From the UHGV virus genome UHGV-0140636: 39,875 bases of DNA. One strand, given 5' to 3'. This DNA is from a virus. The position numbers and the translations under genes were made by a program. Shown in pieces: positions 8,180 through 27,858 of this stretch. Position 1 is the stretch's first letter. Every line of letters begins with the position of its first letter. A model generated the notes under the pieces. That model searched no databases. It was not told where the DNA came from and was given only the letters and a program-made list of their open reading frames with translations.

Positions 8180-8638
8180 CTATCTCCCGTGATTCAGGAA
8201 GTCGATTAGTTCTTCGCGTGTGGCGCTGTAAAACGTCACGTCATCAACGCCTTTGAAGTATTTCTTGATGGTTCCTACACGCTTAAGGCCAATCATTGCG
8301 CAGTACATCTGACCGTGGCGGAATTTGCGTGCAGCGAACGATGTGACGCACTGAACAGTGGTGTTAGTCAGAATGTATCGCCAGAACGCCAGCCCGATTT
8401 CCTTGCTGAAGCCACGAACCTCTGGCAGGTACATGGCGTGGCAATCGAATGTCAGCGGCTGAATCTCCTGATAGTAAACAATGCCGCCAAACTGACCGTG
8501 CACGTTAACCTCAAAGTAACGGCATTCAGGCTTGTAGTCGTATCCATCACCGTTGTTGCTCCCGGCAATAATGTCAGGGTGATTTCCGACTGCTTCGATC
8601 AGGTCGATGTTTCGCGTTGGTTTGAACTGAATCATCAC
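8180..8638 (-). CDS. gp14: gp14-like virion protein
   Basis: 152 aa ORF between needle and gp7 as in P22. Confidence 0.7.
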
Positions 8639-9588
8639 TGCTCCGCGATTATCTTGATGGTTGTGGCAGTAAACGCCGCCCCATTTGACTGAATGGTTAA
8701 CGTGCTGCCATTTGTGGCAAGAAAGCCGTCTTTATCCACGCTGAAGAACGTAGCTAACAGGATGTTATCGGTTGTTGTCGCCGAGTTACGACTGCTTACC
8801 AGTGTGTCAGGTACAGAACCGGAAAATGTTAGCTGCATTGACCTGTTGGAGGTTCCGCTGGGCCACGTCCCGACAATCGACAGCTTGAAGAACAGGGTTT
8901 TGTTCTCGTTGAACACAACCATCTTGTTGTTAACGGTGTCGAAGAATGGTGCCAACGTGCCTGATGACGGCGTGAGCGTTTTCAGCAGGCTAACAAGGTT
9001 GGTAGGCGCTGTTGGAATGGTTACCGATACTCCTGAGTAAACAACCTCTGATTTCTTGCGCGTGGTGGCATACTCAAGCGCAGATATTCTTGTTGAGTGA
9101 TCACCAACTGTGCTTTGTAGCGTCGAAATACTTCCCTCTGCCGCTGTGAGCCTGGTATCAAGTGCGTTGATATCGGTTGTATTCTGAGTTATTCGCGCAT
9201 CATGGTTTGCTAACTCAGATTCATTGGCAGCAATTCGCGTCTCGTGATCAGCCAGCTCTGTTTCGGCAGCCGTAATCCTTGTTTCATGATCTGCAAGAGT
9301 GCTTTCCGCTGCTGAGATTCTATGTTCATGATTGATGAGAGTTGCTTCAGCAGTTTCAATTCTGGATTCATGGTCTGCAAGGGTGACATCCTGCTCATCA
9401 TTCTTCACCTGTGCATCATAAGCCCCCTTCCCTGCTTCGTTGGCCTTGTTAGCCACATTACCAACATCAGTACCCTGTGCAATAACGTAAAGCAGATACG
9501 ACTGAGAGAAGATATTGCGTGGAAGGACTGATGTATCGAGCCGCGTAGCCTGGATGATTACTGGCTCATTGAGATTCGAATCAGCCAT
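8635..9588 (-). CDS. gp26: Tail needle gp26 with extended C-terminal knob domain
   Basis: N-terminus [43 protein letters not shown] matches P22 gp26; heptad-like ADHExRI repeats; 317 aa versus 233 aa in P22 implies extra C-terminal domain. Confidence 0.8.
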
Positions 9589-11006
9589 TACTCAATCCTT
9601 ATCTGGCAGCCAGACAGAGTTACAGGTGACTTCGTGATAACGCGCAATTTGAAGCCAACATTTTTCCTGATGCGCCCTACTCGCTTCCACAAAACGCGTT
9701 TGTCGTAAACGAACGGTTCATTCTGCTCAATCATCTGCTCACGCCCGTAATTGATGCCGTCAGTGGTTGCAGAGAGGAACAGGCGGTCGGCGTACTGCGC
9801 AACGCCAGTTGACGATTCAACTTCAAGGTCGAAAACTCTGGCGTTATCCGCTTTGAACAACGGAGTAAACAGCAGGTGTTCTTGCTGTAGCCCATACTGA
9901 CTACTGATATCGAACTGCAATTTCCCGGTCACCGATTCCAGCTTATCGCCGCACGTTATCTGATTGCCTTCGTAAATGAAGTCGATAGCGCGGTACACAT
10001 CGTCATACAGGCCTGTTTTCAGTACACACCATTGCGGACCATTGGCGCTTGAAGATGCGTCGTACACCAGAACATGGCGCGGAAGATGGATAATCAGCAG
10101 CTCATGAGCATCAAAGCGCAACGATTCCATCACGCCATCAGCCAGTTCATCAGCAGTGTAGGAGCGGAGGATTTTCTCAATGCTCGCGCTGGCGATTGGT
10201 GACACCTGCCCGGAGCCGATGATATACACAGACGGCGCACCTGTTGCCGGATTGCTGATGAACGCATAAGAATCAGCGAATGGAGTTTTGCAGTAAGTCC
10301 CGGCGATGCCTTTTTGCACCATCAGTGATGGCTGTGCGACATACAAAGCAGCACCAACTGTGGTTGCGCCAGTCAGGGAGAAATACTCAATCGTCGATGA
10401 ACCAAAGCAGACGATGAAGTCTCGCCATGTTCCGATGCCGATGATTCCGTCCGGCTGCGATTCTGCGCGATATTGTGCGCTGTAGCGGTCAGGGTGCGAT
10501 TCATCTTCAGGGTCAGTAATAAACCATGAATCAGTGCCGTCTTTTGACCACGCATAACGCCCACGTAAGCGAGTAATGTCACGAACAGAACCTAACTCAT
10601 ACTGCGTGAATCCGCTGTCTGTAGGCCAGTTTGAGACGGTTTTAACCGTGCCATCATAGCGGTATTCGACCAGTTGCCCGTTAACACCTACCGCCTGTGA
10701 TGTCCGACCATGTGCCATTGATACGCGACCACTTCCGGCAACATCACCGACTTCACTTTCGCCTTTGTACAGCTTGCCACCACACACGCGATAAACAGCA
10801 TTCTGCGCCATGTTGTACTCGACGCCACGCGATACGCCGTTCACATCAGAACGTTTGGCAATGCCCGGGAATGAGCGAAGATATCCGCTGCTGTTAAGGA
10901 TTTCTTTTGGTGTAGCCAACATATTCACTGGCAGATAGTCGATATAGTCGGCGTTTCGGAAGTCTTTGCCGACACCTTTCATAAGCGGAAGTTGCTGAAT
11001 CGGCAT
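9588..11006 (-). CDS. gp10: Tail accessory/hub protein gp10
   Basis: 472 aa, same size and position as P22 gp10. Confidence 0.8.
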
Positions 11007-11506
11007 TATTCGCTCCCGTTATCGCAAGGTTCCTTTCGGTGGAAGTAATTCCAACCGTTCCACTTCGCCAACTGGTTACCGCTACCAACAGGCATACGGT
11101 TTGGATAACCGGACTTACATTTAGCGGCTTTTGCTCTGTCCATTGCAGACAGTTTGACGAGTCGCTCTTTCCCGTATCTGGCAGTGGTTATAAGTTTTGC
11201 AGGCGCTTCCAGCGCATAATCCGGTGCAATGCGGCAGGCAAGGTTGAAAATGACAGCATTGATAGCGTTATTTGATAAACCGTGCTCATCGCCCGGATCT
11301 GGAGCGACATCTGCATCAGCGAAAATGTAACCAACGTTGATACCAGGTGACACATCACCGCCAAGCCATTCAGCCATCATCATTTCAAGGTCGTTGACGC
11401 CGTCTTCCATAGACTGCGGTTCGACATCGGTTAACGTGGCATTTGATGCCACACCGAGCTTACGTAATGCCGCAAGAACTAAATCACCCTTCGTTGTCAG
11501 GTTCAT
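11006..11506 (-). CDS. gp4: Head completion/tail adaptor protein gp4
   Basis: [33 protein letters not shown] resembles P22 gp4 N-terminus; start taken at ATG 11506 rather than the repeat-derived upstream extension. Confidence 0.8.
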
Positions 11507-11744
11507 CTGCTGCCGCCTTAGGTTTTCGACCAGGCTTTTTACGCTGTTTTTCTTCTGGCTCTGGATCTGGCTCTGGCTCTGGCTCTGGATCTGGCTCTGC
11601 AACATCCTTCAGAAGATCATCAGGATGTGCAAACCAGCCAGCATCCAGATATTCCTGAAGCTCTTCGGCTTTCACGATTTCAAAGTCGTAGCCAACGCCT
11701 TTCCACTTCTTCATGTCGCCATGACGAAAGATCATGTGTGTCAT
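11484..11744 (-). CDS. Small protein with acidic Glu-Pro/Asp-Pro repeat linker and basic tail
   Basis: ATG 11744 with GGAG 7 nt upstream directly after coat terminator; 86 aa [16 protein letters not shown]...[27 protein letters not shown]; overlaps gp4 start by 23 nt. Confidence 0.45.
11555..11599. repeat. Tandem hexanucleotide repeat (CTGGCT/CTGGAT), about 7.5 units
   Basis: Directly visible: ctggctctggatctggctctggctctggctctggatctggctctg. Confidence 0.9.
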
Positions 11745-11755
11745 GCTTGTCTCCA

Positions 11756-11780
11756 GATAAAAAAGGGAGCCGAAGCTCCC
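11756..11780 (-). terminator. Intrinsic terminator after coat gene
   Basis: Minus strand GGGAGC-TTCG-GCTCCC followed by TTTTTT immediately 3' of coat stop. Confidence 0.75.
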
Positions 11781-11788
11781 TCTGGTTA

Positions 11789-13084
11789 TCACGCGGTCTG
11801 GTTAGGCAGACCAACACCAATTGCCTCTGGTCGTACAGCACATGCTGAATACCACACAGCAATACGGCACTTACCAGACAGAGTGTTGATATCACCCTGC
11901 GTTGCGAAGATGCCGTTAACACCAATACCAGGAATGCTGAAGGAAGACGTTTTCATGCCAGCAAACAGTTCATGGGTTACCGGGATCGGCTGAGACAGCA
12001 GACGGATTGAGTCATCAGCCCAGAACACGTTAGCGGTGGTTGTTGCCACGTTCAGAACGTTTACCGGAGTGGTATCAGCAAGAGAGGTGTTTACGTTAGC
12101 GTAAGCCTTCTCTTCTTTTGTCAGTGACGCGTCATCCAGTGCAATCGGTTTCGGCGTGATTTCGATGTGAGTACCATCGATCACACGGGTGATTGAGAAA
12201 GTCGCATCATCAGTTAGCACGTTCTTCGCCATCTGAGACAGGAATTTCACACCAGTGAAACTGATTTTGTCGCCGCGCTTAAATCCGGTGGTGGAGGATA
12301 CGGTCACCGTTGCAACACGGTTGTCGACGTTCTCTTTGTTACCATCGGTATCAAGGGTGTATGCCTGCGGCTTAAACTTCTGCGCACCAGAAACAGTTAC
12401 ACCAGTAGCGGTTGACTTGGTAACTGCCGGAAGTTTCGGTGAGCGAAGAATTTCATCAAAGCCAGCAATCTGACGCTGAATAGTACCGTTGCGATACGCT
12501 TCTTCAGGAACGCGCCCGAAGATGTCACCATCTACCAGGTTGCGGCCTGCTTTGCGGTAATCGTCAGGGTTCAGGAAGTAACTGATGCCCATATCGCGGT
12601 TTAGCTCACGGGAGAACATCAGGCGCTCTGCATCAGAAACAAAATCCCAGCCAGACAGGCCAGTAGATGGACCAATTGCGCGGGTATCGTGAACAACAAG
12701 CGAGCCCATTTCAGTTGCCTGTTTGGCAATCGCTGACTCAATGTTATTCGCCAGTTTTTTGGCGGATGCCTGGATGCGGCGACGGTAAGAACGCTCATCA
12801 CGCAGGTCATCTGCACGAAGCTCGAAGAAATCGTTATCCGGATCGCCCATGTTGCATTTCACGGAGAGTTCCAGAATCCCGGTTGCGTTGCCAGTTAAAT
12901 CCCAGCCAGTCTGGGTTGGCGCTTCCTGCTCAACAGGCATCCACACGGTGTTGCTTGAACGCTGCATGGATTCTGCCGGAGGGGTGTATTTTGTCACTTT
13001 AGACGCCATTGGCGTCAGGTTCTGGACGGTTTCGATGATTTCATCCAGAGCATACGTGACCAGTTGACCTTCATTTAATGCCAT
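11789..13084 (-). CDS. gp5: Major coat protein gp5
   Basis: 431 aa; [27 protein letters not shown] and C-terminus [13 protein letters not shown] match P22 coat. Confidence 0.9.
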
Positions 13085-25537: not shown

Positions 25538-26914
25538 TCATACGTCCGCCCCTTGTGCATATCGTCTGCCACGCGCAGCAGGTGCATTTGATGCTGTGCA
25601 AATCTGTCTGGCTTCATCCTGGTCACATGCAACAAAGTGTCCGTTACAGAACCGCTGGTAAACCGTACCAAGTGAGCCAAAACGGTTTTTCGTCACGATG
25701 ATTTCAGCAAATGGTGCGGCGCTACTGTTCTCGTCATATACCGCTTCCCGATAGAGCATGATGATTGAGTCTGCGTCCTGTTCAATGCTTCCTGAATCAC
25801 GCAAATCTGCGTTTGTCGGGCGTTTGTTTGGTCGCTTCTCAACATCGCGCGAAAGCTGACTCAGGGAGATAACAGGCGTTTTCAGGTCTTTCGCCATCGC
25901 CTTCAGGCTTCCGGAGATGTGAGCAATTGCGAGGTCGTTGCGATCTGCTTTCGGCTTCTCAATCAGGCCAAGATAATCCGCCATGATGAGTGACAGGTTT
26001 GGATTTTCCTGTTTGTGCCGTTCTGCGATTGAGCGAATTTCTTCGACCGATAACCGCGAGGCATCGACTACCCATACATCCAAATCTGCAAGCTGACTCA
26101 TGCCGTTAGCAACACGCGCCCAGCCTTCGTCATCCATCGATGCAGGATTTCGCAGTACGCTAACCGACATCCTCCCGGCGTTGGCAATGCTTCGCTCTGC
26201 AATCTGCAATGCGCTCATTTCCATCGAGAAAATCAACACTCCGCGCCGGACGTCAGAACCAGGAATAACGCGGCTTGCAACGCCTTCGGCAATCTTCAGC
26301 GCCAGTTCGGTTTTCCCCATACCAGGACGAGCAGCGATTATCACCAGGTCTTCCGCGTTCATCCCTCCGGTGATGGCATCAAGTTCTTCGATTCCGGTCT
26401 TCAGGGTATCTGACTCTTCTCCGTTCCTCAGACGCCTGTCAAGCGTGTCAGTGTAGTCAGTAATGATTTCCCCTAACCGTACAGGTTTTACTTCGTCACG
26501 GGGCTTTCTGATGGCTGAAAGACGCTTTACAAGCTCATCCATCGCCTGACTCGATGCGTCGATTGTCCCGCTCTGAATTGGTTCACGCATTTCATCCATG
26601 ATTTCCAGCACCAGACGGCGGTGATAGTTATCCGCGACCATTCCGGCATATCCTTTCAGGTTTGCGGCACTCGGGCAGTTTTTGCTGGTCATCAGGATTG
26701 ACGTGAAATGCTCCTCTCCGCACGCCTCGGCAACCATCAGCGCGTCGATTAGGTTTCTGTTTCTCGCCTGCTTGCGGATAACCTCGAAGGCTTTCCGGTA
26801 GAGCGGAATTGAAAACGCTTCCGGCTCCAGTGTTGCCAGAACGTCGCTGGCGGTTGGAGTTAATCCACCAATCAGCAGGCCACCGATAACGCTCGCTTCG
26901 ATATCCTGTCTCAT
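25538..26914 (-). CDS. gp12: Replicative DNA helicase (DnaB-like, P22 gp12 type)
   Basis: 458 aa; Walker A GMGKT, DnaB-like motifs. Confidence 0.9.
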
Positions 26915-27858
26915 GCAATCCCCCTGTCTGCAAACTTCCCTTCCCGAACTCCCGTTAACGAATCTTCCCTCAGCAGGTAATCAAAATCTGCCGTCCATCC
27001 CGTGTCGTTGTCTCCGAAGTAAAACGGCTTGGCCTGATGTACAAACGCCCTGACATACGCTCTGAAACCGTCCACGTTTGGCGTTTTCAGTTGCGGGATG
27101 ATTTTCTTCAGGCGGCGTTTGCGTTTCTCGTTGACTGCAACAGCGTGTGGCAGTCTGTCACCGACTTCGGTGTTGTAGGCGTTCAGGAAGGATTCGTAGT
27201 CGATTCGTTCTGCCTTGCGACGTTCAGGTTTAACCTGCCCATCGCCTCCCCCATTGGGGGGTAGGGGGGTATTATTTATATTCTTGTTAATACCTTCTTG
27301 TTCATGATGTGCGGTTTTTTGTGCGGCATCATGTGCGCTTTCATGTGCGGCATGTGCGCTGAAAGCCGCGCCATTACTGTCTTCGTCATGTGCGGCATCA
27401 TGTGCGGTTGTTTGTGCGGCATCATGTGCGGGTGAATTGTCCATTTTTTGAGCGTATTCATGGTAATTTGTGATGGTGATCACACGACCTTTTTGCTTCT
27501 CTCCATCAATGGAGATCATCCCCTCTTTCACAAAAACCTGAAGCATCCGCTCAACCTGATCACGGCTTGCCGGCTTGCCATGCCTGTCGCATAACTGAAG
27601 ACCTAAATCAGCTGCTGTCACAACCAGTTGACCGGGTTGCAGATGCCATTCATGACCTTTGAAATTCGCTTTGTATGGCTTTCTGGCGGCATTCAGGAGA
27701 AGGTTTTCCCACAGGGTGCGAAGATAAACATCTTTCGCCCATGACTGTTTCAGAATGCTCCGGTACAACGGAATGTAACCAGTTTTCTGGTTCTCCATCC
27801 TGTTGCTCCTGCGCTCGTGTGCGGCGCTGAAATCGTAGATTTTTGCTGTATTGCTCAT
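26911..27858 (-). CDS. gp18: Replication initiator (O-like, P22 gp18 type) containing ori
   Basis: N-terminus [10 protein letters not shown] like lambda O; internal iteron-encoded AHDAAQ repeats. Confidence 0.8.
27300..27432. repeat. Origin iterons (CATCATGTGCGG-type repeats, 5 or more copies) flanked by AT-rich tracts
   Basis: Directly visible repeats inside initiator gene. Confidence 0.75.

What the first reader, a model, noticed from the sequence alone, without database searches (positions are those of the whole stretch)
11484..11744. Small ORF with hexanucleotide-repeat-encoded Glu-Pro/Asp-Pro linker between coat and gp4
Directly after the coat terminator an 86 aa ORF with a good RBS has a folded-looking N-terminal half, an (EP/DP)n tract encoded by about 7.5 tandem CTGGCT/CTGGAT units, and a Lys/Arg-rich tail. 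Hexamer repeats can change copy number without a frameshift, giving a length-variable linker. I do not recall a gene at this position in P22.
Basis: seen in the sequence. Interest (0 to 1): 0.5.

Follow-up and report, generated by a model that had tools for sequence, protein, structure and literature searches.

The report
Small phage gene with stuttering linker
This is a real small gene that P22-like phages carry between their coat and head-completion genes, and its Glu-Pro spacer changes length through DNA-repeat slippage; what the protein does is still unknown.

Summary
On the minus strand, 11744..11484 encodes an 86-aa protein directly after the coat-gene terminator hairpin. It has a GGAG ribosome-binding site, seven (E/D)P dipeptides encoded by a hexanucleotide repeat, and a basic tail.

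P22 has a homologue, orf69, at exactly this position. Phage L orf186 and Sf101 gp06 are homologues too, and all fall in PHROG 1175, "unknown function".

The small ORF is the real product, not an N-terminal extension of gp4:
- Substitutions fall mostly on its third codon positions.
- Solved P22 gp4 starts at the Met encoded at 11506.
- The gp4-frame extension has an ATG only in the close E. coli relatives that share this repeat.

The linker is truly length-variable. Relatives carry 2 to 33 dipeptides, always in frame, and loci with identical 1.4-kb flanks differ in copy number.

The predicted architecture is a 48-residue folded N-terminal module, a disordered acidic spacer and an AT-hook-like basic patch. 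The gp4 Shine-Dalgarno sequence lies inside the ORF's last codons. The N-terminal module resembles repeats in the C-terminal half of a GIY-YIG homing endonuclease, which suggests DNA binding.

Function is inferred, not shown. The finding is ordinary to moderately interesting: a new member of a known but uncharacterised family.

The parts
11484..11744 (-). Small ORF, 86 aa; homologue of P22 orf69 / PHROG 1175
   Evidence: ORF list. phrog_1175 E 1.8e-36 over the whole profile. P22 orf69 and Sf101 gp06 hit the same PHROG. Third-position bias of substitutions.
11601..11744 (-). Codons 1-48: folded N-terminal module (beta-hairpin, helix, short helix) with invariant G36, W37 and P41
   Evidence: AlphaFold2 gives pLDDT 84-92 for residues 1-40, with strands 2-14 and 17-25 and helices 26-34 and 41-48. 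Invariant columns. hhalign probability 96% to the repeats of a GIY-YIG endonuclease.
11556..11597 (-). Seven (E/D)P dipeptides encoded by the hexanucleotide microsatellite GAGCCA/GATCCA; this allele is interrupted by two GAT units
   Evidence: Tandem Repeats Finder: period 6, 7.7 copies. Pattern search: 0 matches expected by chance. Copy number is 2-33 in relatives. pLDDT is about 50, so the segment is predicted disordered.
11517..11549 (-). Basic patch [13 protein letters not shown]-hook-like
   Evidence: Conserved in close relatives. Distant members have KRRGRPPKA, KKRGRRPKG or KRRGRPSV. Pfam AT_hook E 0.047 in P0134, which is below the cut-off.
11513..11520 (-). Shine-Dalgarno sequence TAAGGCGG of gp4, embedded in the small ORF's K-P-K-A codons
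   Evidence: Read from the sequence. The same CCTAAGGCGG lies upstream of gene 4 in P22, L, Enterobacter and Pectobacterium, with close variants in Sf101 (GCTAAGGCGG) and Yersinia (AAAAAGGCGG).
11006..11506 (-). gp4 homologue (head-tail adaptor), 166 aa; its start overlaps the small ORF by 23 nt
   Evidence: Pfam P22_Tail-4 E 5.3e-58 from residue 2. Residue 1 of PDB P22 gp4 aligns to this Met.
11507..11605 (-). Spurious upstream extension of the gp4 frame (MLQSQIQSQ...), annotated as part of gene 4 in IME10, Dewey and Louie
   Evidence: It is open only because the repeat has no stop codon in any frame. No ATG, or closed, in most other lineages. Annotations disagree.
11751..11754 (-). GGAG ribosome-binding site, 6 nt before the ATG
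   Evidence: Read from the sequence. Conserved in relatives.
11756..11783 (-). Intrinsic-terminator-like hairpin with UUCG loop and U-run after the coat gene
   Evidence: Terminator scan. RNA fold -18.9 kcal/mol, z -2.4. The equivalent stem-loop is annotated in P22 and L.
11789..13084 (-). Coat protein gene (P22 gp5 type), 431 aa
   Evidence: Pfam P22_CoatProtein E 2.8e-166.

Best explanation
The ORF is a genuine late gene. It is the E. coli-clade version of P22 orf69 (PHROG 1175), which sits between the coat gene and gene 4 in every P22-like phage and prophage examined here.

The protein has three parts:
1. A 48-residue folded N-terminal module: beta-hairpin plus helix, with invariant Gly-Trp and Pro.
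2. A disordered, strongly acidic Glu-Pro spacer.
3. A short basic AT-hook-like patch. The ORF's last codons carry the gp4 Shine-Dalgarno sequence and overlap the gp4 start.

The spacer is encoded by a GAGCCA microsatellite. It expands and contracts by replication slippage in whole hexamers, and in this allele also in 24-nt higher-order units, so the reading frame is never lost.

Spacers of 4 to 66 residues occur in otherwise identical genes, and some alleles carry a whole WDGH domain upstream of a short Glu-Pro tract in the same position. Spacer length is therefore probably almost unconstrained. I read the variation as a near-neutral by-product of slippage, not a switch.

The most likely activity is nucleic-acid binding by both ends of the protein. 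That would make it a small accessory factor acting on phage DNA late in infection (packaging or head completion, or riding in with the DNA). Translation of the ORF would also feed ribosomes to gp4.

My probabilities:
- Real gene and orf69 homologue: 0.95.
- Slippage-driven length polymorphism: 0.9.
- Variation is near-neutral: 0.6.
- DNA binding: 0.4.
- Role in packaging or head completion: 0.25.
For: Family and synteny:
- phrog_1175 E 1.8e-36. P22 orf69, L orf186 and Sf101 gp06 occupy the same position and hit the same PHROG.
- The coat - small ORF - gp4 order holds in six further lineages, down to 33-43% identity.

Coding:
- Codon-position bias is 6/2/15 in close relatives and 42/24/135 across genera.
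- 86 of 87 loci are intact.
- PGAP calls the ORF in 217 of 5,426 complete E. coli genomes.

Slippage:
- 2-14 units; 16 and 33 units.
- All alleles are in frame, and identical flanks carry different counts.
- Units are homogenised as GAGCCA or GAGCCT, depending on lineage.

Architecture:
- The AlphaFold2 model is confident for residues 1-48 and disordered afterwards.

DNA-binding hints:
- Canonical RGRP motifs occur in distant members.
- A GIY-YIG/NUMOD3 endonuclease carries five copies of the V..EL..YL..GW module. It hits phrog_1175 at E 2.2e-14, and hhalign probability is 96%.

Domain swap:
- WDGH-domain alleles have the same tail and identical flanking genes.
Against: - No experiment on any family member was found. 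The G3 paper on phage L calls orf186 'detailed function unknown' (PMC8022706).
- The window protein has PGRKP rather than RGRP and gives no Pfam AT_hook hit.
- Part of the tail's conservation may come from the embedded gp4 ribosome-binding site and the overlap with the gp4 start.
- The link to the endonuclease module covers only 18 columns and was chosen after the search.
- The N-terminal module is only 38% identical between phages whose coat and gp4 are 97-100% identical. That argues against a specific contact with those proteins and would also fit a host-interaction or counter-defence gene.
Confidence: 0.6

Rival explanations
1. The real product is a long form of gp4 (199 aa) that starts at the ATG at 11605 and has a Ser-Gln repeat N-terminal extension. 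On this view the 86-aa ORF is a by-product of a repeat that has no stop codon in any frame.
For: - The gp4 frame is open from an ATG just before the repeat in the window and in the six close phage relatives checked.
- IME10, Dewey and Louie are annotated this way.
- Polymorphism in the 57 nt before the gp4 start shows no clear frame preference.
Against: - Solved P22 gp4 (166 aa) starts at the residue that aligns with the Met at 11506, and the Pfam model starts there too.
- The extension has no ATG or is closed in P22, L, Sf101, Enterobacter, Yersinia, P0133, P0134 and P0143. In Pectobacterium the only ATG is far upstream, not at the repeat.
- Its residues change from Ser-Gln to Ser-Leu in lineages where the small ORF keeps Glu-Pro.
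- The ATG at 11605 has GAAGG immediately adjacent, which is poor spacing for a ribosome-binding site (read).
- The N-terminal half of the small ORF is under purifying selection.
Confidence: 0.04
2. The ORF matters mainly as a translated leader. After the coat terminator it reloads ribosomes and couples them to the gp4 start, and the peptide itself has little function.
For: - The gp4 Shine-Dalgarno sequence lies inside the ORF, and the ORF's stop codon lies 1-23 nt past the gp4 ATG in most lineages.
- Spacer content is very tolerant, at 2-33 units.
- One locus is truncated at codon 13.
Against: - There is strong third-position bias, and residues are invariant across genera in the N-terminal module.
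- The fold prediction is confident.
- The module recurs in other proteins.
- The basic motif is kept even where it lies upstream of the Shine-Dalgarno sequence (P0133).
- In P0143 the ORF ends 3 nt before the gp4 start, without overlap.
Confidence: 0.1
3. The repeat is an adaptive contingency locus. Frequent changes in spacer length tune the reach between the two ends of the protein and create useful heterogeneity in phage populations.
For: - Copy number changes faster than point substitutions in 1.4 kb of flanking sequence.
- Glu-Pro tracts are kept in many lineages, with lineage-specific homogenised units.
- The range is wide, at 2-33 units.
Against: - No on/off switching is possible, because the unit is 6 nt and all alleles are in frame.
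- Sf101 has no Glu-Pro tract and P22 only a short acidic stretch, and another allele class inserts a folded WDGH domain upstream of a short Glu-Pro tract. Length therefore looks tolerated, not tuned.
- Four units is the commonest class among clusters, with a long tail, as expected for a balance between mutation and drift.
Confidence: 0.15
4. It is a host-interaction or counter-defence accessory gene (moron-like) lodged in the structural operon. It may be carried into the next cell with the DNA, and it is not an assembly factor.
For: - The N-terminal module is only 38% identical between phages with 97-100% identical coat and gp4, which points to cassette exchange or rapid diversification.
- The middle region is swappable: a short or absent spacer, a Glu-Pro tract of variable length, or a WDGH domain followed by a short Glu-Pro tract.
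- The protein is acidic overall: 23 Asp+Glu against 13 Lys+Arg.
Against: - It keeps the same position, with translational overlap with gp4, in every P22-like lineage examined. Typical morons are sporadic.
- It has no promoter of its own.
- It matches no known family in Pfam or NCBIfam. The PADLOC defence-system library was not searched.
Confidence: 0.15

Closest known systems
P22 orf69 / phage L and ST64T orf186 / Sf101 gp06 (PHROG 1175 and 3769)
   Same: - Same position between the coat gene and gene 4.
- Same N-terminal module with invariant GW..P.
- Same basic (K/R)-G-(R/P)-K-P-K-A patch in P22 and L.
- Same overlap with the gene 4 start.
   Different: - P22 orf69 has no Glu-Pro microsatellite, only a short acidic stretch.
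- L orf186 carries a WDGH domain (PF25311) in the position of the spacer.
- Sf101 gp06 lacks the basic patch.
- The window allele has seven (E/D)P units.
Lambda gpFI (DNA packaging chaperone)
   Same: - Encoded directly after the major capsid gene and before a head-completion gene.
- A small protein with folded parts joined by a flexible acidic linker. That is my recollection of Popovic et al. 2012 and was not re-read here.
   Different: - No sequence relationship: hhalign probability 0.3% and BLASTP E 2.8.
- No Pfam Packaging_FI hit.
- The domain order and folds differ.
- Head binding was not tested.
AT-hook minor-groove DNA-binding motif (Pfam PF02178)
   Same: A short basic Gly-Arg-Pro-type patch inside a disordered region. 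Distant family members have KRRGRPPKA and KKRGRRPKG.
   Different: The window protein has K-K-P-G-R-K-P-K, without the R-G-R-P core. It gives no Pfam hit, and the best family member scores E 0.047, below the cut-off.
Repeated module in the C-terminal (presumed DNA-binding) half of a GIY-YIG/NUMOD3 homing endonuclease (P0140; phrog_314)
   Same: The strand-helix-GW motif V..(E/D)EL..YL..GW. hhalign probability is 96%, and the endonuclease hits phrog_1175 at E 2.2e-14.
   Different: - The window protein has no nuclease domain.
- Only 18 columns align.
- The function of the module in endonucleases has itself not been described, as far as I could find.
Glu-Pro / Lys-Pro spacer of TonB and EP procyclin
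   Same: An (EP)n tract. Weak matches driven by composition: TonB E 0.054 and Trypan_PARP E 0.0067. From established knowledge, such tracts form extended polyproline-II-like spacers.
   Different: This is a resemblance in composition only, with no homology. All scores are far below the curated cut-offs.

Membership tests
PHROG 1175 (P22 orf69 family) | Significant match to the family profile over its full length | tested here: met
   E 1.8e-36, residues 1-84 against profile positions 1-72 of 72. P22 orf69 scores E 4.5e-31.
PHROG 1175 (P22 orf69 family) | Located between a P22-type coat gene and a gp4 homologue | tested here: met
   Window; P22, L and Sf101; six further lineages.
PHROG 1175 (P22 orf69 family) | N-terminal module with conserved Gly-Trp and Pro | tested here: met
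   G36, W37 and P41 are invariant in 17- and 31-sequence alignments.
AT-hook (PF02178) | R-G-R-P core flanked by basic residues | tested here: not met
   The window protein has K-K-P-G-R-K-P-K. The core is present only in the distant members P0133 and P0134.
AT-hook (PF02178) | Pfam profile match above the gathering score | tested here: not met
   No hit for the window protein at E <= 1. P0134 scores 14.0 bits against a cut-off of 17.4.
Lambda gpFI packaging chaperone | Sequence or profile homology to gpFI | tested here: not met
   hhalign probability 0.3%; BLASTP E 2.8.
Lambda gpFI packaging chaperone | Gene immediately downstream of the major capsid gene and upstream of a head-completion gene | tested here: met
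   Lambda has E - Fi - Fii. The window has coat - small ORF - gp4.
Lambda gpFI packaging chaperone | Binds the major capsid protein and stimulates DNA packaging | not testable with these tools
   Needs biochemistry. The N-terminal module does not co-vary with the coat protein, which counts weakly against a specific contact.
Phase-variable contingency locus (simple sequence repeat) | Hypermutable repeat tract | tested here: met
   Four of 11 groups with identical flanks differ in copy number. The range is 2-33 units.
Phase-variable contingency locus (simple sequence repeat) | Copy-number change switches expression on and off by frameshift | tested here: not met
   The unit is 6 nt, and all 87 alleles are in the same register.
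Homing endonuclease (GIY-YIG) | Nuclease catalytic domain | tested here: not met
   No GIY-YIG or HNH hit in the window protein. Only the small GW module is shared.

The most novel reading that the evidence does not exclude
The orf69 family could be a modular "DNA-riding" adaptor of P22-like phages. The constant ends (the GW module and the AT-hook-like tail) would hold phage DNA. The middle would be a free cargo slot: a very short acidic stretch, a Glu-Pro rod of 4-66 residues, or a WDGH domain followed by a short Glu-Pro tract. The protein would then either chaperone DNA packaging as lambda gpFI does, or be packaged with the DNA and delivered into the next host.
Probability: 0.15. Interest if true: 0.6.

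Novelty: new member of a known kind. Interest (0 to 1): 0.3.

Why it matters
Practical value comes first. Several deposited genomes (IME10, Dewey, Louie) annotate a false long gp4 and miss this gene. The analysis here shows which call is right.

There is also a biological point. P22 is one of the best-studied assembly systems, yet a gene present in every P22-like phage and prophage examined here, wedged between the coat gene and gene 4, still has no function. The natural series of alleles offers a ready-made set of variants for testing what the protein does:
- spacers of 2 to 33 Glu-Pro units;
- alleles with a WDGH domain in the position of the spacer;
- interchangeable N-terminal modules in otherwise identical backgrounds.

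The repeat could also serve as a fast-evolving marker for typing closely related prophages. None of this is likely to surprise a specialist greatly.

Tried and rejected
Structure and sequence searches that gave nothing useful:
- Profile search of PDB sequences: only chance hits to designed TIM barrels.
- Foldseek against BFVD: only uncharacterised small phage proteins.
- The afdb50 library was not available.
- Pfam and NCBIfam: only composition-driven hits (Trypan_PARP, TonB).
- Homology to lambda gpFI: none.

Literature:
- Searches for orf69, orf186, WDGH, Sf6 gp6 and APC_JM3.2 found no functional data.
- Casjens & Thuman-Commike 2011 is not held in the library.

Technical failure:
- The search for related loci with the broad alignment failed because no stretch was conserved enough. 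I used the single protein instead.

Ideas considered and rejected:
- A frameshift fusion of the small ORF to gp4 within the repeat. The gp4 frame is closed just upstream of its start in P22 and P0133, and GAGCCA is not a slippery sequence.
- The other ORFs across the repeat: GSGS on the + strand (71 aa) and WLWL (218 aa). They exist only because the repeat lacks stop codons in all six frames.
- The 102-aa GTG-started version (11792). It would begin inside the coat gene's 3' end and run through the terminator.

Full report
**What is there**

The window is a P22-like (Lederbergvirus-type) E. coli phage or prophage. Its closest relatives are HZ41, APC_JM3.2 and IME10.

The finding lies on the minus strand. 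The coat gene (11789-13084, Pfam P22_CoatProtein E 2.8e-166) ends and is followed by a terminator-like hairpin with a UUCG loop and a U-run (11783-11756). Next comes GGAG, six bases before an ATG at 11744. That ATG opens an 86-codon frame ending at 11484.

Codons 50-63 are seven (E/D)P dipeptides written as GAGCCA/GATCCA hexamers. Tandem Repeats Finder reports period 6 and 7.7 copies. A four-unit pattern occurs nowhere else in the window, with zero matches expected by chance.

The tail reads [21 protein letters not shown]. The last 23 nt overlap the gp4 homologue (11006-11506, Pfam P22_Tail-4 E 5.3e-58).

**It is a known, uncharacterised gene family**

The protein matches PHROG 1175 ("unknown function") over the full profile at E 1.8e-36. 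Phage L and ST64T have orf186, and Sf101 has gp06. All of them hit the same PHROG.

A search of 1.8 billion representative proteins found only 24 relatives. Members with 33-43% identity to the window protein were traced to their contigs, and all lie between a P22-type coat gene and a gp4 homologue. The Enterobacter, Yersinia and Pectobacterium versions do too.

The gene is present in 217 of 5,426 complete E. coli genomes, where PGAP calls it "hypothetical protein". I found no experimental work on it. The paper on phage L states that the function of orf186 is unknown (PMC8022706).

**Small ORF or long gp4?**

Some records (IME10, Dewey, Louie) annotate a long gene 4 running through the repeat and omit the small ORF. 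Others (APC_JM3.2, Bas106) annotate the small ORF. The evidence favours the small ORF:

- Among 87 close relatives, polymorphic sites in the first 147 nt fall 6/2/15 on codon positions 1/2/3 of the small ORF.
- Across four genera the differences fall 42/24/135.
- P22 gp4 in solved structures (166 residues) begins at the residue that aligns with the Met at 11506, not at 11605.
- The gp4-frame extension has no start codon or is closed in P22, L and Sf101, and likewise in Enterobacter, Yersinia, P0133, P0134 and P0143. The Pectobacterium prophage has a long open upstream frame, but its ATG lies far upstream and not at the repeat.
- Where the repeat unit is GAGCCT instead of GAGCCA, the small ORF still reads Glu-Pro, but the gp4 frame changes from Ser-Gln to Ser-Leu.

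The extension exists only because this repeat has no stop codon in any of the six frames. That also explains the GSGS and WLWL ORFs on the other strand.

**The linker is length-variable**

- The 120 closest protein clusters differ almost only in the number of dipeptides.
- In 87 DNA loci the tract has 2 to 14 dipeptides.
- Two E. coli chromosomes carry 16 and 33 dipeptides; the latter gives a 138-aa protein.
- All alleles keep the same register modulo 6.
- Of 11 groups of loci with identical 747-nt and 657-nt flanks, four contain different copy numbers. Copy number therefore changes faster than point substitution, as expected for replication slippage.
- The window's allele is interrupted by two GAT units and looks like a 24-nt higher-order duplication. 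Cluster P0001 has exactly one more such 8-residue unit.
- Glu-Pro tracts recur in many distant lineages, homogenised to a lineage-specific hexamer. The tract is therefore old and evolves in concert.

**Architecture**

AlphaFold2 with a 31-sequence alignment gives a confident fold for residues 1-48: strands 2-14 and 17-25, helices 26-34 and 41-48, and pLDDT 84-92 up to residue 40. The remainder is disordered, with pLDDT about 50. G36, W37 and P41 are invariant.

The middle region is a variable slot:
- P22 has a short acidic stretch.
- Sf101 has almost nothing.
- This clade has a Glu-Pro tract.
- Phage L and some E. coli prophages have a WDGH domain (PF25311), followed in the E. coli allele by a short Glu-Pro tract and the same tail.

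The basic patch is K-K-P-G-R-K-P-K here. Distant members have KRRGRPPKA, KKRGRRPKG or KRRGRPSV, which is the AT-hook core, although the best Pfam score (E 0.047) is below threshold.

The codons for K-P-K-A contain TAAGGCGG, the gp4 Shine-Dalgarno sequence. It is conserved in P22, L, Sf101 and others, so part of the tail's conservation may be a nucleotide-level constraint. In P0133, however, the RGRP motif lies upstream of the Shine-Dalgarno sequence. The motif is therefore also conserved as protein.

**Hints to function (inference, not demonstration)**

One library-wide hit (E 4.1e-5) is a 428-aa GIY-YIG/NUMOD3 homing endonuclease. Its C-terminal half contains five copies of a V..EL..YL..GW module interspersed with NUMOD3-like motifs. 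It hits phrog_1175 at E 2.2e-14, and profile-profile comparison gives 96% probability over 18 columns. Together with the AT-hook-like tail, this suggests that both ends of the protein touch nucleic acid.

The gene's position mirrors lambda Fi, which lies between E and Fii. There is no sequence relationship, though, so this is an analogy only.

Some evidence counts against a specific contact with coat or gp4. The N-terminal module is only about 38% identical between P22 and L, and between this window and an E. coli WDGH allele, although coat and gp4 are 97-100% identical in those pairs. That pattern fits either a generic ligand such as DNA, or a diversifying host-interaction role.

Structural searches gave nothing informative.

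**Verdict**

The feature is a real member of the orf69/PHROG 1175 family with a slippage-prone, in-frame Glu-Pro microsatellite. The tolerated spacer range is wide and the middle region is swappable. The length variation is therefore most probably a near-neutral consequence of slippage in a disordered spacer, not a regulatory device.

The protein's function remains unknown. A small DNA-binding accessory factor of late infection is the best-supported guess, at about 0.4 for DNA binding and lower for any specific role.

Novelty is modest: a new member of a known, uncharacterised kind, with a useful correction to the annotation.

Noticed in passing
window 27303-27430 (inside minus-strand ORF 26911-27858): A second in-frame tandem repeat (period 12/24, about 5.5 copies). 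It encodes [14 protein letters not shown]-type units in the middle of a 315-aa protein that looks like a replication initiator. It may be another slippage-variable linker.
   Followed up: no
window 8635-9588, minus strand: The ORF after the gp10 homologue (317 aa), in the gp26 tail-needle position, has repeated ADHETRI(T/E)AAE-like heptad units and a long C-terminal domain. It is much longer than my recollection of P22 gp26.
   Followed up: no
L002 3247-3445 and L005 3235-3439 (phages Dewey and Louie): These close relatives carry an HNH endonuclease gene on the opposite strand next to the coat gene, where the window, APC_JM3.2 and IME10 have the scaffold gene directly adjacent.
   Followed up: no
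L098 301-717 (E. coli 98195, NZ_CP173582) and L100 301-900 (E. coli A3, NZ_CP195960): These are extreme alleles of the same gene: 33 Glu-Pro dipeptides (138 aa), and a WDGH-domain allele (199 aa). They sit next to the same gp4 protein accession, WP_021514122.1.
   Followed up: partly
L025 (IMG/VR UViG_2684622552_000004), small ORF: This is the only one of 87 loci in which the small ORF is truncated, with a stop after codon 13. That suggests the gene may be dispensable in at least one prophage, or that the sequence contains an error.
   Followed up: no
P0143 (L093 849-1169): This distant family member lacks the basic tail. Instead it ends in TLEQRAAALGLKIDGRWSPETLAEKIAEAE, which from memory resembles a helix-extended-helix (SAP/Rho_N-like) DNA-binding motif. 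Pfam gives no hit.
   Followed up: partly
H85, H87 (records named E. coli DH5alpha): Two complete genomes labelled DH5alpha contain this P22-like prophage region, which is unexpected for that laboratory strain. The cause could be lysogenisation or mislabelling.
   Followed up: no
P0007 (E. coli, 93 aa): This allele has a 13-residue duplication ([13 protein letters not shown]) at the end of the N-terminal module, so larger in-frame duplications also occur in this gene.
   Followed up: no
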